From the NCBI GenBank assembly GCA_964361095.1, contig CAYHZA010000003.1, positions 31,773-95,772 of the forward strand: a stretch of DNA of 64,000 nt, in the 5' to 3' direction. Below, one piece after another: positions 8,836-52,234 of the stretch. Made by a program: the position numbers and the translations under genes. A model generated the notes under the pieces. It did not search any database. It saw only the letters and a list, made by a program, of their open reading frames with translations, and was not told the DNA's origin. Origin of the DNA: an uncultured Candidatus Saccharibacteria bacterium (lineage in GTDB: Bacteria > Patescibacteriota > Minisyncoccia > UBA6257 > 2-01-FULL-56-20). Each line of letters opens with the position of its first letter. The first letter of the stretch is position 1.

Positions 8836-9282
8836 TCACTCTTCGAACGCGACGGTGATGTCGGAGTCTTCCCTGCCAGGCGAGTGAAAATCGAAGACAT
8901 GGAAAAAACGCAGAACATCGCCTGATTCGAGCGAACAGTGGGTACCGATGTGTTCTTCTACGCCATTCCAACCGATGGCAAAGATCGCACCGTTCCGCAC
9001 GAGGCACGTCTCCATCCCGAGGGAGATTCTCCAGATTTTACCCGCACGCCAGAGATCACCTACATGCCAACTGCCGAGTTTCACAGGAACCTTCCCCTTC
9101 GTGATTCTTTCAACCGCAAGAAGTGGTTTGCCACCGAGCATGAGAACGAGCGGCTGGTTCAGCACCGATGGAGCTTCGATATCCTCCCGAACACGCCTGA
9201 ACAATTTCAGCATTACAACCTCCTCATAAAATTGAATTGTGCTTGCTATTCGCATTAAAAACGAAAACCCACCGAAAAGCAA
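8836..9282 (-). CDS. hypothetical protein (beta-barrel, cupin/dUTPase-like guess)
   Basis: 148-aa ORF; the probable start is the internal MLKLF. Assignment is weak. Confidence 0.3.
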   Translation of the reverse strand: MLFGGFSFLMRIASTIQFYEEVVMLKLFRRVREDIEAPSVLNQPLVLMLGGKPLLAVERITKGKVPVKLGSWHVGDLWRAGKIWRISLGMETCLVRNGAIFAIGWNGVEEHIGTHCSLESGDVLRFFHVFDFHSPGREDSDITVAFEE

Positions 9283-9326
9283 GGAGAAGCTTCAATTTAT
9301 CAGGAAATGGCGCTAAAATTAACTCA

Positions 9327-12104
9327 ATGCCAGAAACTCTCGAACCCCATTACGACCACCTGAAGACCGAAGAAAAAATCTACCGACTCTGGGAAGGGTC
9401 GGGGTACTTTTCACCGGACAAACTTCCGTCAAAGAAAACCGCAAAGCCGTTTACGGTCATGATGCCCCCGCCGAACGCGAACGGCTCACTCCATATCGGA
9501 CATGCGGTGGGCATCACTCTTCAAGACGTTATGGCGCGCTTCGCGCGTATGCGCGGGAAAAAGACTCTTTGGCTTCCCGGCGCCGATCATGCCGGATTTG
9601 AAACACAGGTTGTATTCGATAAAAAACTCGAGAAGGAAGGACGCAACTCCGACGCGTTGCACGGTCGGAGCTCCGACACCGAAGGTCGTCGGAGCCGCTT
9701 CACGATGAGCCGCGAAGAATTATGGAAAGAAATTTGGGACTTTACGCAGACAAATAAAAAAGTGATGGAAAACCAGCTCCGCAAGCTTGGCGCTTCCTGC
9801 GACTGGTCCCGCGAGAAATTCACGCTCGATCCGGACATCATAAAAACCGTCTACGAAACATTCGAGAGGCTCTACAAGGACGGACTCGCCTATCGTGACC
9901 TCCGCGTCGTGAATTGGTGCCCTAAACATCGCACGGCTCTTTCGGACTTGGAGGTAAAATATATTGAACGCGAAGATCCCCTCTATTACATAAAATATGG
10001 ACCACTCACGCTCGCGACCGTCCGACCCGAAACAAAATTCGGGGACACCGCGCTCGCGGTAAATCCGAAAGACAAGCGGTATCAAAAATATATTGGGAAA
10101 GTTATCGAAGCGCGGGGTATTTTGGGACCTTTGAAATTCAAGGTGATTGCAGACGACGCGATAGACCCAAAGTTCGGCACGGGAGTGGTCAAGGTAACTC
10201 CCGCGCACGACCCTCTGGACTTTGAGATTTGGCAACGACACAAGAACGAAATCTCGGGACCAAAAGTTATCATAGACGAATCCGGCCGCTTAACCGGCGA
10301 GGTTGGCGAATTCAAAGGGCTCAAAGTTTCCGAGGCGCGACAAAAAGTTTCGGAAGCAATGGAAAAAATTGGCATCTTGGAAAAAACGGATTCGCACTAC
10401 AAACACCAAGTGGCAACGTGCTACAAGTGCGGAAATATATTAGAACCGCTTCCTAAGCCGCAGTGGTTCATTCGGATGACGGAGAAACCGAGACAAGTAT
10501 CAAGTGACAAGCGTCAAGCTTCAGGAAAGTCGCTTCGCGACCTCGGAATTGATGCTGTAAAGAGCGGAAAAATAAAGATTTATCCGAAAAGAACCGAGAA
10601 GGTATATATGCACTGGCTCAAGAATATCCGCGACTGGAACATCTCGCGGCAGATCGTCTGGGGCATCCGGATTCCGGCGTGGTTTAGAGAAATATCAAAT
10701 ATCAAAGATCAAAGATCAAAGATATGGGACTTGAAAATTTACGATGGAAGGAAAACGTTTGAGGCACTAAAGAACGGTAAAAAACGCGTTGAGACTCGCG
10801 CCGGGAAACCCCAAGGAGCAGAAAAAGACTGGCGAAGTTTTAAGATAGGAGATGTAATTAACTTTTCGCTTGTTGAAGAGGGAACGGAACGCATTTTGTC
10901 TAACGAAGTTATTACGAAAGAAATAGTTTCTATTCACCATTTCCGAACGATTGACGAGTTACTATCAAAATTTGATGTAAATGAAATCCATCCCTATCAT
11001 CCGACCGAATATCGCAGCTGGTGGGAAAGCCGTCCTATCTTTAAAAAACGTATAAAAAAATATGGCATCTGGGCATTTGAACTCCAAGACGTCAATGAAA
11101 AAACTCAAGAAATATATGTCGGCATAGCTCCTCCTTCCGGCGAGGGTTGGGTTCAAGACCCCGACGTCTTCGACACGTGGTTCTCTTCGGGCCAGTGGCC
11201 GTTTGCTACTCTTCTTGCGAACAAGAAGGGTGACACGAGACATGTGACACGAGACATGAGAAGAAAATCAGATTTTGAGGAATTCTATCCAACCGACGTG
11301 ATGGCAACCGGCTACGATATCCTCTTCTTTTGGGTGGCGCGAATGGTGATGCTCGGCCTTTACCGCACCGACAAAGTCCCCTTTAAAAACGTCTATTTGC
11401 ACGGGCTTGTGCGCGACAAGGACCGGCAGAAAATGTCCAAATCAAAAGGGAACGTCGTGGATCCTTTGGGCGTTGCCGAAATGTATGGCGCAGACGCCCT
11501 ACGAATGGCGCTTGTGGTCGGAAACACGCCCGGAAACGACATCGCAATATCCGAAGACAAGATTCGCGGTTATCGAAATTTTGCGACCAAAATCTGGAAT
11601 GCAAGCCGGTTTGTGCTCATGAATCGGCCAAGCAAAATGCCAAAAATCATAAAACTCTCCGCCGAAGACAAAAAAAACATCGCAGGAGTGATAAAAGCGA
11701 AAGCGGCCGTCGCGAAATATATCGAGAAATTTGAATTTCATCTCGCCGCGGAAAAGGCGTACCACTATTTTTGGCACACGTTCGCGGATAAGATCATCGA
11801 AAGCTACAAGCCGCGGCTTCGAGGAGAAGAATTTTTTGCTTCTGGCGCGGCTATGAGGCCGAGCGGGCATGGTTTGCCGCAAAGCGGCGAGAGCGAGGCC
11901 GAATCGCCAGTGAACATCCACGCTAGGGATGTGAACGGTAGCCAAAAACAAAAAATTCTTGCCGACCAGCTTGCCGCTTATCATACCCTTGAAACAATCC
12001 TTCTCGAATCCTTGAAGATGCTCCACCCCTTTATGCCATTCGTAAGCGAAGAAATCTATGGGAAGCTCAACCCCGGGAAACTCCTCATTATCGAGAAGTG
12101 GTAA
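9327..12104 (+). CDS. valS: valine--tRNA ligase carrying an inserted ASCH domain and small GC-rich in-frame inserts
   Basis: HIGH motif (PPPNANGSLHIGHA) and KMSKS motif. Conserved segments RIPAWF and DVFDTWFSSGQWPF flank an insert of about 125 aa. The likely start is MPETLEPHYD at 9327; the ORF track begins at 9237. Confidence 0.9.
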   Translation: MPETLEPHYDHLKTEEKIYRLWEGSGYFSPDKLPSKKTAKPFTVMMPPPNANGSLHIGHAVGITLQDVMARFARMRGKKTLWLPGADHAGFETQVVFDKKLEKEGRNSDALHGRSSDTEGRRSRFTMSREELWKEIWDFTQTNKKVMENQLRKLGASCDWSREKFTLDPDIIKTVYETFERLYKDGLAYRDLRVVNWCPKHRTALSDLEVKYIEREDPLYYIKYGPLTLATVRPETKFGDTALAVNPKDKRYQKYIGKVIEARGILGPLKFKVIADDAIDPKFGTGVVKVTPAHDPLDFEIWQRHKNEISGPKVIIDESGRLTGEVGEFKGLKVSEARQKVSEAMEKIGILEKTDSHYKHQVATCYKCGNILEPLPKPQWFIRMTEKPRQVSSDKRQASGKSLRDLGIDAVKSGKIKIYPKRTEKVYMHWLKNIRDWNISRQIVWGIRIPAWFREISNIKDQRSKIWDLKIYDGRKTFEALKNGKKRVETRAGKPQGAEKDWRSFKIGDVINFSLVEEGTERILSNEVITKEIVSIHHFRTIDELLSKFDVNEIHPYHPTEYRSWWESRPIFKKRIKKYGIWAFELQDVNEKTQEIYVGIAPPSGEGWVQDPDVFDTWFSSGQWPFATLLANKKGDTRHVTRDMRRKSDFEEFYPTDVMATGYDILFFWVARMVMLGLYRTDKVPFKNVYLHGLVRDKDRQKMSKSKGNVVDPLGVAEMYGADALRMALVVGNTPGNDIAISEDKIRGYRNFATKIWNASRFVLMNRPSKMPKIIKLSAEDKKNIAGVIKAKAAVAKYIEKFEFHLAAEKAYHYFWHTFADKIIESYKPRLRGEEFFASGAAMRPSGHGLPQSGESEAESPVNIHARDVNGSQKQKILADQLAAYHTLETILLESLKMLHPFMPFVSEEIYGKLNPGKLLIIEKW
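10725..11093 (+). other. ASCH (YqfB-like, PUA-like) domain inserted in ValRS
   Basis: YDGRKTFEALKNGKKRVETR...FKIGDVINF...WAFELQDV. From memory, this aligns with E. coli YqfB (GRKTITIRDE...FKTGDVLRV...YVIEFKCL), including the GxKxxExR motif. Confidence 0.6.
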
Positions 12105-13600: not shown

Positions 13601-13801
13601 CGATTCCCTGTTTCTTTTTATAATCAAAAATACTCAAGGTTTTGACGGGCTGTAGCCCCGACGCGCTAATTTTCATAGAATAATGAGGTCGGGGTCCCAA
13701 CCTTGGCGTCGGGATATACCGGTAGTACCCCAGTAGCAGAGCAAAGTTCGCTACGGGGCAGGCGCACTATTGGCCAAACACCAAATCGAGCACATTACAA
13801 T

Positions 13802-13872
13802 CGGGGTGTAGTATAGTGGTAGTACGCAAGGCTGGGGGTCTTGTAGTGGGAGTTCGATTCTCCCCACCCCGA
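13802..13872 (+). tRNA. tRNA-Pro (anticodon GGG)
   Basis: Manual fold. Acceptor CGGGGTG/CACCCCG; D-arm GTAT-AGTGGTA-GTAC; anticodon stem CAAGG/TCTTG with loop CUGGGGG; T-arm GGGAG-TTCGATT-CTCCC; discriminator A; no encoded CCA. Confidence 0.7.
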
Positions 13873-13879
13873 CTAATAC

Positions 13880-14110
13880 AACAGGTGCTCGATTGGTAGC
13901 GGGGTAAAGGTGCATGCCAGCCCAGTAGCGATCCGCCGGTTGGCGGATTTGTTACTGGGGTAGACCGGGTTCTCCGCCAGCTGGCGGACCGGCAGCCCGA
14001 CCAGCTTCAGTTTTCACTTCCCGAGAACCGCGGTCCGTCCGCTCCTGCGGCGGCCACCCGTTGCCTCCAACGGCTCCTTTGAATACCAAGCTCACAACGC
14101 CTCCGAGAGC
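13880..14110. other. GC-rich hairpin-dense non-coding region (candidate structured RNA, identity unknown)
   Basis: Many stable hairpins, including CCGCCGGTTGGCGG and CCGCCAGCTGGCGG. No protein-like ORF. No RNase P, SRP or tmRNA motifs found. Confidence 0.2.
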
Positions 14111-14365
14111 TTCTTGGGAAGCAAAAACTTACGCGACTAAACCAATAGAGAGTCGAAATTATCCTTAAAATAAGCCAATTTTTGTTGAACGCTTTTTAGC
14201 TCGGTTTCCATATTTTGGACAAAAGTTCGCGATGATTCGAAGCCATTTTATAGATGCCCCATAGGGCTTTTTATTTTGCGGCAAGCACTTGACTTGTGAC
14301 AGGAAATAAACTATAATATGAATAGGATTTATCGAACCTTGAAAACCTAGACTGGAGGTGATCAC

Positions 14366-15379
14366 GTGAAGCGAACTAAGACTCTGCTTCGAGTGTTGTT
14401 GTCCCTTCTCATCTTAGAGTCCGCGTTCGCAATTCACGAATACGGTCATCTAAGAGAGTTCCAGAAACGAGGCGTCCCTGTTAAAGAGTTTTCTCTGGGG
14501 ATTGGTCCTCGACTGTATCAATACCAAACCGATTCTTCGCTCACTATAAGTTTCCGGCTCATACCGATAATGGCGTATGTAGCACCAACGGAAGAGGGCG
14601 GAAACTTATTCAGGAAGCAAGGAACGCTTTGGGACAAAGTCGCTGTTGACGCAGCGGGAGTACGGAATAACTTCTTGGTTGGTTTGGCCATCGTGTTTTT
14701 TATGCAGGTTCTTGGTTGGAAAAAAGGAAATCTATCCATAAAGGAACTCACAGGAACAGCGGCGGTTACGCCTTTCAAGATTTTACTCCGCTTCATCGCG
14801 TTTCTCGTCGGCTGTGTAACATGGGGTCGCGTCAACCTGGCGGAGAGGTTTCTTCTTTCCACAGGGGGCATTGATCCGCCTAAACCGCTCAAGTCGTTCA
14901 TCCTTTGGAACTTGACGCTTGGTTTTCTCAACCTTGCACCAATTCCTCCCCTTGACGGCGGTCACGTACTAGAAGCTATCCTGTTCTCGATAGGAGCTAA
15001 CATCCACATACCAGAGATTCCGAAATTCGTGGGTGTCATCCTGTTTGCGGCATACTACGCGACTGCTGGCAATCAGGATATGCGCGTACTCGAGGTTGAG
15101 GTAAAAAAGAAATCTACTACTGTGTTCAACGTGAGTAAAAAAAGAAGCGAGTCGAGAGAGACGATTAGTCGTCGAGAAGAAGTCGAAACGCAGATTGCTT
15201 TTTGTCCTCTCATCTCGGCTCGAACCAACAACGTTCTCAATCGCGCCGGCATCTATACAATTGCCGACTTACGGAAATTCACCGCGGCACAGTTACTAGA
15301 AATCAAAGGTTTCGGTCCAAAATCTCTTGCGGAAGTTGAGACGCTTCTGTCTCAAAGAGATTTGCACCTAAAGCCGTAA
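14366..15379 (+). CDS. site-2 protease (M50 family) fused to an RNA polymerase alpha-CTD-like HhH domain
   Basis: HEYGH (HExxH) and LNLAPIPPLDGGH (LDG) motifs in a multi-TM body. The C-terminus (ARTNNVLNRAGIYTIADLRKFTAAQLLEIKGFGPKSLAEVETLL) resembles the alpha-CTD ([43 protein letters not shown]). Confidence 0.7.
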   Translation: MKRTKTLLRVLLSLLILESAFAIHEYGHLREFQKRGVPVKEFSLGIGPRLYQYQTDSSLTISFRLIPIMAYVAPTEEGGNLFRKQGTLWDKVAVDAAGVRNNFLVGLAIVFFMQVLGWKKGNLSIKELTGTAAVTPFKILLRFIAFLVGCVTWGRVNLAERFLLSTGGIDPPKPLKSFILWNLTLGFLNLAPIPPLDGGHVLEAILFSIGANIHIPEIPKFVGVILFAAYYATAGNQDMRVLEVEVKKKSTTVFNVSKKRSESRETISRREEVETQIAFCPLISARTNNVLNRAGIYTIADLRKFTAAQLLEIKGFGPKSLAEVETLLSQRDLHLKP

Positions 15380-15687
15380 GTACGATCATCCGAGTCCATT
15401 AGTTCAAAGGTATGTATAGAGAAATCTATACATACCTTTTTTCTTTTTAAAATATCGAAGAACCCGGACTCTGCATTTATTCAAAATCTAAACCAAACTA
15501 AAAATCGCCACGAGAAATGGCGATCTTTGGGATCTCGCTCAGATATCCCGGAAGTAAATCCAGGTGGGTGGGCTCAATCACGATCCCAAGGGACCGGATA
15601 ATTCGCCCTCCCAATTAAAATTATTTGATCCGAAATCTGAGGCGAGATCCCTTTTATGATACGAACTATCGAAAACTTGTGCAAATC

Positions 15688-20092: not shown

Positions 20093-20135
20093 GCCAATTT
20101 TATACGATGCGAAGCGAGTAGCTAAAATTGAGCAC

Positions 20136-20390
20136 CCAGCTCCACTTTTTATGAAGGCGCTCGAACGACCCTTTTGTGGTAATGGCGGAAATTTTCATGG
20201 TGTTATTGGATGGTGTCATGGTAAAAAGTGGGGCTGGGTAAGGTTTTGTTCATAAATTTCTTCGAAATTTATACAAAGCCCAGCTCCAGTTTTATACAGA
20301 TATAGTTTTCAGGATATATTACCATAAGGATGTAAGTTAGATGTTTCTTATATTCAACTCTTTTTGCAAAACTGGGGCTGGGCAAAGCCC
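20136..20390. repeat. MITE-like element copy B (20136-20281) plus a nested or partial second copy (20282-20390)
   Basis: Shares more than 90% of a roughly 60-nt terminal block with copy A. The second sub-element has CAGCTCCAGTTTT / AAAACTGGGGCTGG inverted termini. It fills the rpsM-rpmJ spacer. Confidence 0.55.
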
Positions 20391-30500: not shown

Positions 30501-30528
30501 AAAGGTTTCAAGTTGCAAGATACAAGCG

Positions 30529-31263
30529 TTAGGGAACCACTGGACGGACGCGGATACCGTCGCTCCGACTGTCGGGATCGCCCCAGCCGACGCTCAGGTC
30601 GCCGCCGCGCCAGTCCACGCCCGGCACGCAGGCACCCGGACCCCGCGAACCCGTGCAGAGCGTGATGTTCTTCAGGTCGAGGTGTTTCCCCGTCTCCATG
30701 AAGTACTTCAGTTCATAGAGGAGCCGCTCGGGGAGTGTGATGCCTACGACACCCCGTGCTTTCGTGTTGTTTGCCGAGAGGTTCTTCAGCTCCTCGTCGG
30801 CCTCGACACGGTCGCGCACCCAGATTGCGTAGTCGTGGTCCGGCTCGCGGTCGGATTTGATCTGGTCCAAGTCCTCCGTGTACCGCCACGCCGGGAAGAG
30901 CTCTTTGCACTTTGCGAAGAGCCGGTTCGGGGTCATGCCCGCGAGAACCACGATGAGGCGGTCGAAGCCGTCCTTGTGCGTTGGAATCGCAAGACTGTCG
31001 ACGAGGCTCGAGAAGTCCTTCTCGATGCCGAAGATGTCCCGGTAGAACTCCTGCCAGGGATCCAAGAGAAGGAGCTCGGGCACGGGATAAAAGCCACTCA
31101 CTTCACGGAGAATCTCCGAGACTTTCCTGGCCCACACGCGCTTCCTTCGAACGAGTTTCTGCATCTCGGCGAAACTCATGTCGGGAATCGCTTGGATCAA
31201 AGCCGCACTCACTTCCTTGAACTGGCCTTGTGTTGCCGGACGGACAGTTTCATGCCTATGCAT
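30529..31263 (-). CDS. DGR target (variable) protein, GC-rich, with the VR at its 3' end
   Basis: 244 aa. The C-terminus ...LCTGSRGPGACVPGVDWRGGDLSVGWGDPDSRSDGIRVRPVVP is encoded by the VR (30540-30655). AAGGAGG RBS. GC content is far above neighbouring genes. Confidence 0.7.
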   Translation of the reverse strand: MHRHETVRPATQGQFKEVSAALIQAIPDMSFAEMQKLVRRKRVWARKVSEILREVSGFYPVPELLLLDPWQEFYRDIFGIEKDFSSLVDSLAIPTHKDGFDRLIVVLAGMTPNRLFAKCKELFPAWRYTEDLDQIKSDREPDHDYAIWVRDRVEADEELKNLSANNTKARGVVGITLPERLLYELKYFMETGKHLDLKNITLCTGSRGPGACVPGVDWRGGDLSVGWGDPDSRSDGIRVRPVVP

Positions 31264-31608
31264 GAGCAGTTCCTCCTTGTTTCTTGTTAAAGGCGCAAAT
31301 CCACCATGGATTCGCTTCTGTTCTTATTATAGCATGCTTTATGCAGTTTTGTCAAATCACCTCATATTATTCCAATAACCGGCGGGTTTCATTTTGCGAC
31401 GACCATAAGTGACTTCCCCCACAACTTACTGCAGATCTCCTTTTGGGTAACCATAAGTGAAGGCGAAAAAGAAATAAACGAGCGCCGTGTAGATTTTTTG
31501 AAAATAAATTTGATGGTCGGAGGCACGACGGGTACCGTCAAATTTACTCAAAAAATCAAACAAAGCGAGCAATATTTCTCTCGCCGTAACGGGTTACCCA
31601 AAAGGAGA

Positions 31609-32820
31609 TCAAAGATTCTCGAATCCCTCGAGCGCCTCCGCGCTCCGATGCTCCCGAATCCTCTCCAAAGCCTTCGCTTCGATCTGCCGGATACGCTCGC
31701 GGGTTACGCCGAAGACTTTTCCCACTTCTTCCAAGGTATGGGTCACGCCATCTTCAAGCCCAAACCGCATCGTAAGAATTTTCCGTTCGCGTTCGGTAAG
31801 ATCGGCTAAAATATTTTGTATCAAATCACGCACCAAAGCACGCGCCGCAAGCTGTGAAGGCGTCGCGTTTTTTTCGTCGGCGATAAAATCCGAAAGCGTG
31901 GAATCCTCCTCGTCTCCCACCGGCGCTTCAATAGAAAGAACTTCCTGGGAGATCTTCTGGATCTGGCGCACCTTTTCGATCTTCATTTTCATCTCCACCG
32001 AAATTTCCTCCGGAAGCGGTTCTCGCCCCAATTCCTGTATCAATTGGCGGCGCACCTGCGTATATTTCGAAATCGTCTCCACCATATGAACCGGAATGCG
32101 GATTGTCCGCGAAAAATCCGCGAGGGCACGGGTAATCGCCTGACGTATCCACCATGTGGCGTACGTTGAAAATTTAAAACCCCTTCGGTAGTCGAACTTC
32201 TCGACCGCCCGTGAGAGACCGATATTTCCCTCTTGGATAAGATCAAGAATACTCAAATTCGGCGTGCGGTTAATGTAACGCTTCGCAATGGAAACAACGA
32301 GGCGTAAATTAGCCTTCATAAGTTTCTGCCGCGCCTCCTCGTCGCTTTTTTCGGCGCGCTTCGCGAGCTCCCGCTCTTCGTCTTTCGTAAGAAGCGCCGT
32401 CCGGCCGATTTCTTTCAAATAAACCTGCACCGCGTCCGGAAGGTCGCCGTCAAAATTCAAAGCTCCCTCAAGCTCCGCCTGGCTTATCTCGTCTTCTTTC
32501 GGAATCTCGATAAGTCCGCTTGTTTCGATAACTTTGATATTCGCCTTTTCGAGCCGATTATAAATCTCCTCGAGGAACTGAACGTCTTCCTCTATCTTCG
32601 GAAAATAATACAAAATCTCGCTATCCGTCACAAAACCGCGTGGGCGTCCCTTTTCGATCAGTTCGGCAAGCGCGTCTTCGTTGATCGCGAGATGGCTCTT
32701 CGCTTTTTGCGTCTTATCTTTTTTTATCTTCTTTTTTACTTCTTTCCGATGAGACGCTTTTTTTACCAGAGTTTTTTTACGGGCATGCAGCCCTTTTTTT
32801 AAAGAGATTTTTTTCTTCAT
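31609..32820 (-). CDS. rpoD: RNA polymerase primary sigma factor
   Basis: Regions 1.2 through 4: [41 protein letters not shown]...[24 protein letters not shown]. Confidence 0.9.
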
Positions 32821-38688: not shown

Positions 38689-38764
38689 ATGCCCTTAGGA
38701 TAACGTGCGAAAAACGGAAAAGCAAAAACGATACAATGGCGTAATACAAAACCAAGTTCTTTCT

Positions 38765-39000
38765 GCGCGGCTATGAAGCCGAACGGGTATGGTGTCCCGC
38801 CTCGTATGTCCTTCGACACCGGGCGTCCACGTGCTCCGGCGGCACATGGCGCCCTACGCTCTCGGTATTCGGAATTCCTACGGAATACCGAGCTCCGAAT
38901 GCCTCCGAGAGTTGTCTCAAGACATACGAGGCGGGACGAGAGAGGCCGAATGCCAATGAGAACTCACGCCGGGAGTTCGAGTGGTAGCAGAAAGAACTGG
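38765..39000. repeat. GC-rich, highly structured palindromic element E1 (RPE-like; alternatively a small ncRNA)
   Basis: A 17-bp long-range helix (GTCCCGCCTCGTATGTC ... GACATACGAGGCGGGAC) and nested hairpins. Both termini are homologous to an in-frame segment of valS (11848-11945). Overlapping ORFs give low-complexity, R-rich translations. Confidence 0.45.
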
Positions 39001-39025
39001 GTTTTTCAAACAACCTCACTCAATG

Positions 39026-49700: not shown

Positions 49701-50711
49701 ATGTCAAGTAACTCGCAAACCCCAAAAATCCTCGTGATTCTGGGTCCTACGGCGAGTGGGAAATCCAAACTTGCGGTAGAACTGGCAAAGCAATACAACG
49801 GCGAAATAATCTCCGCGGATTCCCGACAGGTGTATAGGGGGCTGGATATAGGCTCAGGGAAAGTGCCCCGCGACAATTTAAAGATCAAAGATCAAAGATC
49901 AAAATTACAAAGCAAAATTAAAAATAATGGGGAAGGTTATTTTCATGGGGGCATTAAGCACCATCTACTTGATGTCGCAAGCCCTAAGTGGACCTTCACC
50001 GTGACGCAATATCAGAAACTGGCGAGAGCGGCGATCAATAAAATTTTAAAGAAAGGAAAAACGCCCATCATTGTCGGAGGCACGGGATTTTATATTGACG
50101 CGGTGCTCCATGGCTGGGAACTCCCCGCGGTAAAACCGAATCTGATATTGCGCAAAAAACTTGAGAAGCTCTCTCCGGAAAAATTATTTGCGGAACTTAA
50201 AAGGCGCGACCCTCGCCGCGCTCGAACGATTGACCGGCACAACAAGCGCCGGCTCATCCGCGCGCTCGAAATCATAACGGCGACAAAAAATCCCGTGCCG
50301 CCGCTTGCGGAAAGAAATTCTTACTCCAATGTTCTTGAGAACATTGGAGTAAGAACCGGCAAGAATATTTTAAAAATCGGCATACGGCTTCCCGATGAGG
50401 AACTCAAAAAACGCATCCACAATCGCCTTCTCGGCTGGCTTCGAGAGGGGCTTCTTGGGGAAATTAAAAAACTCCGCGCGGAAGGAGTAAGCTGGAAACG
50501 GCTGGACGGTTTCGGATTAGAGTATCGGCAGGCAAGCCGATATCTGCGTCACCTTATTACAAAAACAGAGATGATCGAAAAATCGGAAACCGAAATCCGA
50601 CGCTACGCCAAGCGGCAAATGACATGGTGGAAACGCGACAAAGAAATCGCGTGGCTCAAAAATGAAAAAGAAATCTTTCAAGCAGTGCGGCGATTTGTTG
50701 CTTTATCGTGA
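49701..50711 (+). CDS. miaA: tRNA dimethylallyltransferase with an in-frame insertion of about 25 aa
   Basis: P-loop GPTASGKS and DSRQVYRGLDIGSGK. An insert (NLKIKDQRSKLQSKIKNNGEGYF) precedes the conserved HHLLDV. Confidence 0.85.
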   Translation: MSSNSQTPKILVILGPTASGKSKLAVELAKQYNGEIISADSRQVYRGLDIGSGKVPRDNLKIKDQRSKLQSKIKNNGEGYFHGGIKHHLLDVASPKWTFTVTQYQKLARAAINKILKKGKTPIIVGGTGFYIDAVLHGWELPAVKPNLILRKKLEKLSPEKLFAELKRRDPRRARTIDRHNKRRLIRALEIITATKNPVPPLAERNSYSNVLENIGVRTGKNILKIGIRLPDEELKKRIHNRLLGWLREGLLGEIKKLRAEGVSWKRLDGFGLEYRQASRYLRHLITKTEMIEKSETEIRRYAKRQMTWWKRDKEIAWLKNEKEIFQAVRRFVALS

Positions 50712-51029
50712 AACTATTGCCGTGTCGCAGAAGCCCGAGATACGACGCGACAGTTTCGGGTGCAGGGTGCGCGACGATTCTCTTCATCATCCCTTGAGAC
50801 TTCAAATGAACTCAGTCGAAGTTATACTCTTGGGATTGTATCGAATTCGGAATCTGTAATTCCTTAACTTCTTGCACCAAGTAGCAACAGTATAAAGCGC
50901 ATAACACCGCGCACCGAAAACAGACATGTCCGCTCTCGTTCCGGCAAATGCCATCGCAGAATTCGACCGCACACAACCGTAGCCGTATACGCAACGTCTA
51001 CTATCCGTAATCATGGTATCACAATATGC

Positions 51030-51070
51030 AAAAGGCTCCGACGACATGATGTCGAAGGAGCCTTTTTGTG
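51030..51070. terminator. bidirectional rho-independent terminator
   Basis: AAAGGCTCC ... GGAGCCTTT hairpin flanked by A5 and T5 runs. Confidence 0.5.
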
Positions 51071-51141
51071 AAAGAGTCCAAGTGACTAAGGTTCAAATCA
51101 AAAACCAAAGTCACAAGACCCAAAGTTGCTACTTGCCCGCC

Positions 51142-51777
51142 TTAGGCGGGCTTACTGGAGATCGCCAGACGCCCGCGCCGATCCAAGTGAGTGCCGAGCC
51201 AGTACCAACGCAGGTACCACTGCGTGCTGCCCTGAGAGAGGCATGGGACGAACCGGTAGCCGTTCTCGTTCACCACGACCAGTCCAGAGAAGTCGATGTA
51301 GATCTTCCCGAGAAGAGCCATAAAGTCCGGGAATTCGTCTTGGTGCTCCACGAGCCAGACGGCCTGCTGATAGCCCAGACAGAGATCGAGCTTCGAGGCG
51401 ATACGGCACTCGTACTCGGTGCCGTTTATCCTGTTCTCGTCGGGACGCAGGACGGTCGCGAGTGCGAGCGTAGTCACTTCGATCGGCGAAGTGTCCCGCT
51501 CGATGGACTTGATCCACGAAAACTTCGCCTGGAGTTCCCAGAGTGTCGGCCGCGGGAGTGCGGGAATTTGGAGCGTGAGTTCGTCCGTCTCGCGGAAGAA
51601 ATCGCCGATCTGCATCCGGAAGCCGTTCCGGACAAAAGCAGTGAATTCGCTTCCCGCACGCTTGGCCTCACTAATACCCACCTGAACCTGCTCGACTGTG
51701 AGCGAGTCCCAATCGGCATTCTCGCCGAGTTTGGCAAGAAGCGAGAGACATTGCTTCGCGGAAATCTTGCTCATCAC
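51142..51777 (-). CDS. hypothetical protein encoded in a GC-rich island
   Basis: 211-aa protein-like translation on the minus strand. The overlapping plus-strand 328-aa ORF is V/R/L-rich shadow sequence. GC is well above neighbouring genes. Confidence 0.5.
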   Translation of the reverse strand: MMSKISAKQCLSLLAKLGENADWDSLTVEQVQVGISEAKRAGSEFTAFVRNGFRMQIGDFFRETDELTLQIPALPRPTLWELQAKFSWIKSIERDTSPIEVTTLALATVLRPDENRINGTEYECRIASKLDLCLGYQQAVWLVEHQDEFPDFMALLGKIYIDFSGLVVVNENGYRFVPCLSQGSTQWYLRWYWLGTHLDRRGRLAISSKPA

Positions 51778-51840
51778 GTCCTCCTGTGCCGCGGGGATTT
51801 AAACACGTCGCATTATGCGAGCGTTTGGTCCTCTCGTTTC

Positions 51841-51941
51841 GCCGCAGCGCTTAACGCATATGAACGCCCTAAGCGCTGCGGCAAATTCGCAAGTAGATTA
51901 ATTTATAAAAGTGCTATTATCAGTGATAATTTTAGCACTAT
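51841..51941. promoter_or_regulatory. two palindromes in the upstream region of the 51142-51777 gene
   Basis: GCCGCAGCGCTTA...TAAGCGCTGCGGC (13-bp arms) and AGTGCTA ttatcagtgataa tt TAGCACT (nested). Confidence 0.3.
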
Positions 51942-51976
51942 TTATACTATTTTGTCAACCCCCACACCAAACGAGT

Positions 51977-52234
51977 TCAAGTGGCCAGAGATTTCTTGAT
52001 GCGCCCGAGGAGCTGCTTCATCGCTTTAGCTCTTAGCTTCAAATTATGTTCCCTGTGCCTCGCATCCTCTTCTACTGCATATGCCTCCGCGTACACCAGT
52101 TTGAAGGGCCTACGGTATTTGGTGGATATTACAAATCCGGAGTTATGTTCTTTTATTCTCTTTGCAAGATTTCCGGTAAAACCAATATAAAATCTGCCAT
52201 CTTTCAAGCTTTTCAAAATATATACCGAGAACAT
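51977..52234 (-). CDS. stand-alone GIY-YIG nuclease-domain protein
   Basis: VYILKSLKDGRFYIGFTGNLAKRIKEHN, 85 aa. Confidence 0.7.
   Translation of the reverse strand: MFSVYILKSLKDGRFYIGFTGNLAKRIKEHNSGFVISTKYRRPFKLVYAEAYAVEEDARHREHNLKLRAKAMKQLLGRIKKSLAT

What the first reader, a model, noticed from the sequence alone, without database searches (positions are those of the whole stretch)
11848..11945. GC-rich palindromic element family with an intergenic master copy and an in-frame copy inside valS (Rickettsia-RPE-like behaviour)
The structured GC-rich element at 38765-39000 shares about 75-85% identity at both termini with an in-frame segment of valS: GCGCGGCTATGA[A/G]GCCGA[A/G]CGGG[T/C]ATGGT at the 5' end, and GAGGCCGAAT.GCCA.TGA.AAC..CACGC ... 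GGTAGC at the 3' end. The valS copy lacks the central roughly 135 nt. In valS it adds about 35 residues (ASGAAMRPSGHGLPQSGESEAESPVNIHARDVNGS) in the same frame relative to the element as the ORF that runs through the intergenic copy. A second GC-rich double-hairpin insert sits at 9640-9700 (CTCCGAC...GTCGGAG twice). Small palindromic elements that insert in-frame into essential genes are famous from Rickettsia and rarely reported elsewhere.
Basis: seen in the sequence. Interest (0 to 1): 0.6.

Follow-up and report, generated by a model that had tools for sequence, protein, structure and literature searches.

The report
Structured palindromic mobile elements inside CPR genes
A 134-base, GC-rich, strongly folding element is inserted in frame in the essential valS gene of a Patescibacteria (CPR) bacterium; it belongs to a previously undescribed family that also sits between genes, inside other genes and inside other copies, much like the palindromic elements of Rickettsia.

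Summary
valS 11827-11960 and the intergenic 38748-39005 share a conserved core. Scans of public genomes and metagenomes found about 24 further loci, all in Patescibacteria (Liptonbacteria-like and MAGs labelled Saccharibacteria).

Each copy ("module A") has a ~98-nt branched core with nearly invariant junctions. The core sits at the tip of a 17-22 bp AT-rich stem whose sequence differs at every locus. Covariation is strong: 91.6% of cells paired against 64% in shuffles, and 35 of 45 pairs change on both sides.

Three unrelated genes (valS, an IscS-like cysteine desulfurase, a PMT_2 glycosyltransferase) carry it in the same orientation and frame, giving "AAMRPSGHG..SP..AG..SGS". In ValRS it adds 44 residues to what is a 5-residue loop in T. 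thermophilus ValRS.

The intergenic copy is not a master copy. Its extra ~126 nt are a second element ("module B") nested in the P3 hairpin of module A. Module B also occurs alone (14010-14129). In other lineages it sits in frame, reversed, at the same ValRS loop.

Rfam and the literature searches gave no match. The best reading is an RPE-like selfish structured element, a new variant of a known kind. How it moves, and why the stems stay paired, is unresolved.

The parts
9237..12104 (+). valS (valine--tRNA ligase), host gene; probable start ATG at 9327
   Evidence: ORF; a 100% identical ValRS from a Patescibacteria MAG and hundreds of orthologues; Pfam tRNA-synt_1 and Anticodon_1
11827..11844 (+). 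left arm (P1 5' strand) of the valS copy, encoding part of 'EEFFAS'
   Evidence: 18-bp complementarity with 11943-11960; orthologous valS copies differ by 1-9 compensated double changes
11845..11942 (+). module A core in valS: J1/2 GCGCGGCU, P2, J2/3 GAGCGGGCAUGGU, short P3 hairpin, J3/2, and a P4 hairpin with tandem G.A and loop CGCUAGG
   Evidence: alignment A2 and pair counts; covariance model 134.7 bits, E=1.5e-30
11943..11960 (+). right arm (P1 3' strand) of the valS copy, encoding 'QKQKIL'
38748..38764 (+). left arm of the intergenic composite copy
   Evidence: inverted repeat I9, 19 nt, 95% complementary; fold
38765..38988 (+). module A core of the intergenic copy ('long form'), with module B nested in its P3 hairpin
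   Evidence: nhmmer hits to both halves
38794..38937 (.). nested module B with its own long stem (arms 38794-38818 and 38913-38937). The strand that is mRNA-sense in the module-B valS inserts of other lineages is the window's minus strand
   Evidence: inverted repeat I1; blastn and alignment to the type-2 valS inserts in reverse complement; nhmmer E=1.3e-22; 37 of 44 predicted pairs keep pairing through changes on both sides
38989..39005 (+). right arm of the intergenic composite. On the minus strand the arm pair is followed by TTTTG and lies 21 nt after the lepA stop
14010..14129 (+). solitary module B copy, in a GC-rich hairpin cluster downstream of tRNA-Pro
   Evidence: GC and fold scan; sequence; blastn; alignment A5; nhmmer E=8.5e-25; no Rfam match
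9647..9694 (+). two tandem 24-nt hairpins (CTCCGAC..GTCGGAG), an in-frame 16-codon insert in valS; a separate small palindromic insert, not module A or B
   Evidence: absent from the ValRS of L001 and L002

Best explanation
What it is. The valS segment is one copy of an undescribed family of small, GC-rich, highly structured selfish elements of Patescibacteria. A copy is a conserved branched core at the tip of a long AT-rich stem of 17-22 bp. Module A has about 98 nt and nearly invariant junction sequences. Module B has a core of about 110 nt. The stem sequence is specific to each locus.

Where copies lie. They are found just after stop codons (where terminator hairpins are expected), between divergent genes, nested in a hairpin of another copy, and in short surface loops of proteins.

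In genes. Only insertions that fall in the single stop-free sense frame survive. They are translated, so ValRS gains 44 residues in a loop of its anticodon-binding domain.

What is shown: the family, its structure and covariation, the nesting, the in-frame read-through in three host genes, and the patchy distribution at the same ValRS and IscS loops.

What is inferred: the element spreads as a folded single strand, mobilised in trans by an unidentified enzyme. It either integrates into the loops of pre-existing long hairpins or carries a stem that is re-templated. This would explain why the stems are locus-specific yet stay complementary.
For: Family and host range:
- 11 genome and 11 metagenome loci match the 5' motif, and all but one chance hit are CPR; six copies were found on five contigs of one Liptonbacteria MAG.
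- Contexts are not syntenic.

Structure:
- 91.6% of cells are paired against 64% in shuffles and 42-45% in slid controls; 35 of 45 pairs change on both sides.
- Module B: 37 of 44 predicted pairs keep pairing through changes on both sides.
- Arms are unique per locus and 17-22 bp long: 349 Watson-Crick, 19 G.U, 20 other.

Genic copies:
- Three host genes carry module A in the same orientation and frame (Pfam).
- Module B is also in frame in valS of L005-L007.
- The insert site corresponds to a 5-residue inter-helix loop in 1GAX.
- ValRS proteins with inserts are scattered in the tree, each next to a sister without one.

Hairpin hosts:
- The same loops carry hairpin-only inserts in other lineages: ValRS P0014, and an IscS loop that ranges from 50 to 104 residues.
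- Nine of 11 intergenic copies lie 8-61 nt after a stop codon.
- The window contains long perfect AT-rich hairpins, both terminator-like and inside coding sequence.
- L022 and L026 share an identical 28-nt P3 but have unrelated arms.
Against: - No mobilising gene, target-site duplication or autonomous version was found.
- No within-population empty site was recovered. The near-identical strain L030 also has the element.
- ValRS sisters without the insert lack both arms. A LepA relative has only a 19-nt spacer. So pre-existing hairpins are not shown at these two loci.
- Copies within one genome differ in every helix, unlike a recent MITE burst.
- Orthologous valS copies keep perfect stems through up to 9 compensated double changes. 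For junk DNA this needs an extra explanation, either selection or template switching.
- A profile of the encoded peptide found only one further protein among 1.84 billion representatives, again a ValRS. In-frame insertion is therefore rare, not massive as in Rickettsia.
Confidence: 0.65

Rival explanations
1. The core is a functional structured RNA (a ribozyme, or the scaffold of an RNA-protein complex). It would be made from several gene copies and cut out of longer transcripts at the 17-22 bp stem, for example by RNase III. All copies, including the one embedded in valS, would then be kept by purifying selection.
For: - Junctions are nearly invariant while every helix covaries.
- There is a conserved G.U pair, 10 of 12 sequences.
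- A possible kissing loop, UCCAGCG with CGCUGGG, covaries once: the window has UCCGGCG with CGCCGGG.
- Stem length is tightly set.
- Orthologous valS copies keep their stems through compensated changes.
- The intergenic window copy has a TACAAT box upstream and a T-run after the stem.
Against: - Seven of 11 intergenic copies are antisense to both neighbouring genes, and no shared promoter or terminator was seen.
- In the composite, modules A and B have opposite better-folding (G-rich) strands, so one transcript cannot serve both.
- The strand preference tracks G>C skew.
- All genic copies are in frame and free of stops.
- Cutting at the stem would destroy the valS mRNA.
- No Rfam family matches.
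Confidence: 0.17
2. The element is an intervening sequence removed from the mRNA. The stem would bring the two exon ends together for cleavage and ligation, so that ValRS protein lacks the 44 residues.
For: - The flanks pair to form a helix that juxtaposes the insertion boundaries.
- The structure is maintained in an essential gene across species.
- CPR rRNA genes are known to carry excised insertions (own knowledge, not tested here).
Against: - Four independent genic cases (module A in valS, module B in valS, IscS, PMT_2) are all a multiple of three in length and stop-free in the host frame. An excised intron has no need for that.
- No group I or II intron or other Rfam match.
- No bulge-helix-bulge motif was seen by eye at the stem-core boundaries.
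- The same elements occur between genes, where there is nothing to splice.
Confidence: 0.05
3. The segment is only a lineage-specific, low-complexity loop expansion of ValRS, and its resemblance to the intergenic sequence is chance.
For: The loop is variable in length among orthologues, and the encoded peptide is low in complexity.
Against: - The same core is found in intergenic DNA and in unrelated genes, with E-values down to 1e-34.
- The motif is 40-fold above chance.
- Compensatory changes act on the nucleic-acid pairing, not on the protein.
Confidence: 0.01

Closest known systems
Rickettsia palindromic elements (RPE; Ogata et al. 2000 Science, Ogata et al. 2002 Genome Res, as summarised in PMC10969869)
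   Same: Both are repeats of roughly 100-150 bp that fold as palindromes. Both are found between genes and in frame inside unrelated, often essential genes. In both, the element contributes a conserved peptide in one frame, placed where the protein tolerates it.
   Different: The host phylum is different (Patescibacteria). Only three host genes were seen, not dozens. The conserved part is an internal branched core, and the terminal stem is unique to each locus. Helices covary heavily. Two modules nest in each other. The same protein loop is occupied repeatedly by different modules.
MITEs in general (Correia, ERIC, BOX and others; review PMC10969869)
   Same: Small, non-autonomous and multi-copy; some give in-frame fusions.
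   Different: Terminal inverted repeats are not conserved between copies, no target-site duplication was evident, and no parent insertion sequence was found.
REP, BIME and REPIN elements, and insertion sequences that target REP hairpins (PMC3116915, PMC3333891, PMC1525189)
   Same: Both involve hairpin-forming repeats that may act as single-stranded DNA, mosaic or nested arrangements, and hairpins that serve as landing sites for other mobile DNA.
   Different: REPs are 20-40 nt, extragenic, present in hundreds of copies, have conserved arms and are linked to RAYT transposases. Here the arms vary, the loop content is conserved, copy number is low, and no RAYT was seen.
GC clusters of yeast mitochondria and double-hairpin elements of Allomyces mitochondria (own knowledge, not checked here)
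   Same: GC-rich palindromic modules in a more AT-rich setting, sometimes in frame in genes and sometimes nested.
   Different: Those are organellar, much shorter, and lack a conserved multi-helix core.
Coding palindromes of Nematomorpha mitochondrial genes (PMC6649704), and maintenance of hairpins by template switching (bioRxiv 10.1101/2023.04.19.537475)
   Same: Long, near-perfect inverted repeats inside coding sequence with both arms translated. Template switching is a way to make or restore perfect stems without selection.
   Different: Those cases have no conserved core element in the loop and are not a dispersed family.

Membership tests
Rickettsia palindromic elements (RPE) | Repeat of about 100-150 bp able to fold as a palindrome, in several copies per genome | tested here: met
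   The unit is 132-160 nt with its arms. Six copies were found on five contigs of one MAG. Folding z-scores are -2.9 and -8.4.
Rickettsia palindromic elements (RPE) | In-frame insertion into unrelated protein-coding genes, giving a conserved peptide | tested here: met
   valS, an IscS-like gene and a PMT_2 gene carry it in the same orientation and frame, giving 'AAMRPSGHG..SP..AG..SGS'.
Rickettsia palindromic elements (RPE) | Sequence homology to the RPE families of Rickettsia | not testable with these tools
   No RPE sequences were at hand. The host is a different phylum, and all 22 loci of the motif scans but one chance hit are CPR.
MITE | Terminal inverted repeats conserved among copies | tested here: not met
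   The arms pair within a copy but are unrelated between loci. Only a pyrimidine-rich 4-6 nt next to the core recurs.
MITE | Target-site duplication flanking the element | tested here: not met
   No consistent direct repeat was seen outside the arms, by inspection only.
MITE | A related autonomous insertion sequence with a transposase | tested here: inconclusive
   None of about 24 loci has an ORF between the two halves. The longest form is 241 nt and non-coding. Whole genomes could not be searched.
REP / REPIN | Extragenic palindromes of 20-40 nt with conserved arms, in hundreds of copies, linked to a RAYT | tested here: not met
   Different size and architecture, some copies lie inside genes, copy number is low.
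Any curated RNA family (Rfam 15), including group I and II introns and small ribozymes | A match to a covariance model | tested here: not met
   No hit at gathering score in the window. Only noise hits at E<=10 on either copy or on 13700-14600.
Structured RNA in general | Helices supported by compensatory changes, with conserved unpaired junctions | tested here: met
   This shows that a folded single strand matters; it does not show that the strand is RNA.
Excised intervening sequence (intron or IVS) | No constraint on frame or stop codons within the host gene | tested here: not met
   All four independent genic cases are in frame and stop-free.

The most novel reading that the evidence does not exclude
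Modules A and B may be a new class of structure-dependent mobile nucleic acid that integrates specifically into the loops of long hairpins: terminators, coding palindromes, and each other. Alternatively they may be a self-processing or ribozyme-like RNA that is carried inside genes yet remains functional. Either reading would explain three things: junctions that are invariant across distant CPR lineages, stems that stay perfectly paired inside coding sequence, and repeated occupation of the same ValRS and IscS loops.
Probability: 0.2. Interest if true: 0.85.

Novelty: new variant of a known kind. Interest (0 to 1): 0.65.

Why it matters
In-frame palindromic 'selfish DNA' inside essential genes is a textbook curiosity tied almost entirely to Rickettsia. 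This case shows the same behaviour in the Candidate Phyla Radiation, a huge and poorly understood branch of bacteria with tiny genomes.

The elements have an unusually elaborate, covariation-supported fold. Their architecture, a conserved core in the loop of a locus-specific long stem with modules nested in one another, does not fit standard MITE models.

This gives three things:
- a concrete explanation for some of the unexplained insertions that inflate CPR proteins;
- ready-made models for masking or annotating such inserts;
- a tractable system for asking how hairpins inside coding sequence are created and kept.

Tried and rejected
- Rfam, at gathering score on the window and at E<=10 on both copies and on 13700-14600: only noise.
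- ARAGORN: no tRNA- or tmRNA-like call at the elements. I considered a resemblance of CCGAGCGG to class II tRNA D-arms, and of 13905-13920 to tmRNA PK1, and dropped both for lack of any model support.
- RNAalifold's local hairpin GGCUAUGAGGCC. I rejected it in favour of the long-range P2 pairing AUGnnnCC/GGnnnCAU, which covaries.
- The alternative hairpin CCAGCGAG/CUCGCUGG: conserved in sequence, but it does not covary.
- Viral contigs: no copy with two different patterns.
- Arms as copies of nearby sequence: 11-mers from the arms found no local source.
- A target-derived inverted duplication of native valS sequence: insert-less sisters lack both arms.
- Empty site at lepA-divIC: the 99% identical strain has the same element. 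The 74% relative has a 19-nt spacer and is too distant to define boundaries.
- Strand of folding: the sense strand of module A folds better in 19 of 21 copies, but module B prefers the opposite strand. Both effects track G>C skew, so this does not settle RNA against DNA.
- Orientation of intergenic copies against their neighbours: 7 antisense, 2 sense, 2 between divergent genes. Not decisive.
- Profile of the encoded peptide against 1.84 billion representatives: one true hit, another ValRS on a chimeric gene call, plus two unrelated repeat translations.
- Literature searches for CPR palindromic elements or MITEs: nothing relevant.
Full report
**1.

valS occupies 9237-12104 on the + strand. Its segment around 11845-11942 aligns at both ends with the intergenic sequence 38765-38988, which has an extra ~126 nt in the middle. 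The 19-nt motif GGCTATGARGCCGARCGGG occurs exactly twice in the 64-kb window, against 0.05 expected.

Both copies fold far better than shuffled sequence, with z = -2.9 and -8.4. In both, the sequences flanking the conserved part pair with each other. In valS these are AAGAATTTTTTGCTTCTG (11827-11844) and CAAAAACAAAAAATTCTT (11943-11960). In the intergenic copy they are 38748-38764 and 38989-39005. The unit inserted in valS is therefore 44 codons, 11829-11960.

**2. Organism, and proof that the segment is an insert**

The ValRS is 100% identical to one from a 'Patescibacteria group bacterium' MAG, and its relatives are Candidatus Liptonbacteria and other Parcubacteria. The window is about 48% GC.

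In an alignment of 60 orthologues most have only 4-7 residues at this point. Four carry the same kind of insert: the window, P0004, P0006, and a diverged form in P0032. Four carry a second GC-rich kind. T. thermophilus ValRS (1GAX) has about 5 residues here, between two helices of the anticodon-binding domain.

In a neighbour-joining tree the ValRS proteins with inserts are scattered, each next to a sister without one. Those sisters lack both arms as well as the core.

**3. A family**

One exact-pattern scan of GTDB species genomes gave 11 loci. Five lie on different contigs of a single Liptonbacteria MAG (JACOXZ01). Two are valS orthologues, three are in MAGs labelled Saccharibacteria, and one is a chance hit in Piscinibacter. 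The same scan of metagenomes gave 11 more loci, from groundwater and other environmental assemblies. A covariance model added diverged copies in L028 and L008. Viral contigs gave none.

Every copy has the same plan:
- P1: arms of 17-22 bp.
- J1/2: GCGCGGCU.
- P2: AUGnnnCC paired with GGnnnCAU, often with tandem G.A.
- J2/3: GAGCGGGCAKGGU.
- P3: a variable hairpin.
- J3/2: GAGCG(C)A.
- P4: a long irregular hairpin with a bulged A, two covarying pairs, tandem G.A, a 5-6 bp covarying stem and the loop CGCUGGG.
- Then the second arm.

On 12 short copies, 91.6% of cells are paired, against 64% in column shuffles and 42-45% when partners are slid. Thirty-five of 45 pairs change on both sides, and one G.U pair is kept in 10 of 12 sequences.

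The arms are unrelated between loci, although within each copy they are almost perfectly complementary: 349 Watson-Crick, 19 G.U and 20 other pairs.

No Rfam family matches. Literature searches found no description.

**4. Behaviour in genes**

Three unrelated genes carry module A in the same orientation and frame:
- valS, in the window, L001, L002 and L029; also in the protein P0361, for which no DNA was examined;
- an IscS-like cysteine desulfurase, in L011, L019 and L035;
- a PMT_2 glycosyltransferase, in L024.

The common frame is partly forced. One of the other sense frames always runs into TGA (in CTATGA). The other can hit TAG in GGTAGC or TGA in TGAGCGG, depending on core length; in the valS copy it stops at a TAG inside the P4 loop. 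Two antisense frames are often open.

All genic cases keep the downstream protein in frame. This argues for read-through rather than excision. A profile of the encoded peptide found only one further protein among 1.84 billion representatives, again a ValRS. In-frame copies are therefore rare.

**5. The intergenic copy is a composite, not a master**

The 'extra' middle of the long form matches the second kind of valS insert (L005-L007), and a solitary intergenic element in L014, in reverse complement (blastn; alignment). This module B has its own conserved core and its own locus-specific stem. Of its 44 predicted pairs, 37 keep pairing through changes on both sides.

The long form is thus module B nested in the P3 hairpin of module A. 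Five long forms were found (window, L009, L014, L021, L008) in non-syntenic contexts: lepA-divIC, murB-hpf, DUF541-murB, rpiB-rpe, and one whose neighbours were not annotated.

The window holds a third member, a solitary module B at 14010-14129 in a GC-rich hairpin cluster after tRNA-Pro. The window has two A and two B copies in all.

**6. Where the arms come from is unresolved**

In favour of locus-specific, pre-existing hairpins:
- Copies with an identical 28-nt P3 have unrelated arms (L022 and L026).
- valS copies with different P2 subtypes share homologous arms.
- Nine of 11 intergenic copies lie 8-61 nt after a stop codon.
- The window's arm pair lies 21 nt after the lepA stop and, on that strand, is followed by a T-run.
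- The window has long perfect AT-rich hairpins. Some look like terminators (15406-15439, 2005-2042). Others lie inside coding sequence (MiaA 50318-50355; ORF 51013-51999).
- Other lineages carry hairpin-only inserts at the same ValRS loop (P0014).
- The same IscS loop ranges from 50 to 104 residues among 120 orthologues, with many short inserts whose residue pattern suggests AT-rich palindromes (only one checked at DNA level, by eye) and several GC-rich kinds.

Against:
- ValRS sisters without the insert lack the arms.
- A LepA relative has a 19-nt spacer.
- Module B arms in three valS genes differ from each other.

Orthologous valS copies differ by up to 9 fully compensated double changes in 17 arm pairs, with none broken. 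The pairing is therefore actively kept or re-made. Selection, or template switching of the kind proposed for hairpins (bioRxiv 10.1101/2023.04.19.537475), could do this.

**7. RNA or DNA?**

The sense strand of module A folds better than the antisense in 19 of 21 copies (p = 6e-4). Module B prefers the opposite strand in 9 of 10 copies. Both effects follow G>C skew, and in the composite the two modules are nested with opposite preferred strands.

Intergenic copies are mostly antisense to their neighbours and share no promoter or terminator. This weighs against a transcribed functional RNA. It fits selfish DNA that folds as a single strand.

**8. Verdict**

The 'master copy with a deleted derivative' reading is replaced by nesting of two modules. 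The 9647-9694 double hairpin is a separate small insert.

The nearest known systems are RPEs (PMC10969869 for a summary), REP/REPIN-type hairpin repeats and the insertion sequences that target them (PMC3116915, PMC1525189), and coding palindromes (PMC6649704). The family fails the MITE criteria of conserved terminal repeats and target duplications.

I rate it a new variant of a known kind, of real interest because of its host group, its elaborate conserved fold and its unexplained stem behaviour.

Noticed in passing
window 9647-9694: Two tandem 24-nt hairpins (CTCCGAC-N10-GTCGGAG) add 16 codons (SDALHGRSSDTEGRRS) to the N-terminal part of ValRS. They are absent from the orthologues in L001 and L002. 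The only other match in the held loci lies inside the module B part of the L021 long form.
   Followed up: partly
window 10686-11150: ValRS has a 155-residue stretch between 'IRIPAW' and 'VQDPDVFDTWF' with no Pfam match. The L002 orthologue has about 40 residues there, and many relatives carry a His_Phos_1 domain somewhere in the protein (position not checked).
   Followed up: partly
window 13880-14009: A GC-rich cluster of strong hairpins lies directly after tRNA-Pro and before the solitary module B, for example CCCAGTAGCGATCCGCC-GGTT-GGCGGATTTGTTACTGGG. It has no Rfam match, and about 38 nt are shared with L001.
   Followed up: partly
window 50318-50355: A perfect 18-bp palindrome with a 2-nt centre lies inside the MiaA (IPPT) coding sequence, encoding ..NSYSNVLENIGVRT.. 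It is a coding hairpin with no core in it.
   Followed up: partly
window 51030-51066 and 51838-51885: Two more long inverted repeats (18 bp at 89% and 16 bp at 94%) lie inside ORF 51013-51999, which has no Pfam match.
   Followed up: no
window 20134-20239 and 20278-20383: Two adjacent AT-rich intergenic units are each flanked by similar inverted repeats (ACCCAGCTCCACTTTTTA/TAAAAAGTGGGGCTGGGT and GCCCAGCTCCAGTTTT/AAAACTGGGGCTGGGC). They may belong to another small repeat family.
   Followed up: no
window 31434-31610: A perfect 19-bp inverted repeat (GATCTCCTTTTGGGTAACC) encloses 139 nt that contain a second inverted repeat.
   Followed up: no
window 30511-31010: A stretch of up to 78% GC in a genome of about 48% GC, possibly a foreign or unusual gene.
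   Followed up: no
P0123, P0166, P0183, P0192, P0202 (LepA homologues): Several CPR LepA proteins are 150-200 residues longer and carry a PDDEXK_3 (GxxExxY) domain. This is another example of extra domains inside CPR housekeeping proteins.
   Followed up: no
IscS-like orthologues P0241-P0360, loop between 'NNEIGT' and 'PLFHTDA': The loop length ranges from 50 to 104 residues. It holds many short inserts whose residue pattern suggests AT-rich palindromes, and at least three GC-rich insert types besides module A (P0244; P0272 and P0302; P0299).
   Followed up: partly
L005 1063-1506 and 3836-4261: Two genes for 23S_rRNA_IVP-family proteins lie near valS in one relative.
   Followed up: no
P0361: A 329-residue representative protein is a chimera of an N-terminal phosphoglycerate-kinase-like part (judged by eye) and the ValRS C-terminus carrying module A. 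It is probably an assembly or gene-calling artefact.
   Followed up: no
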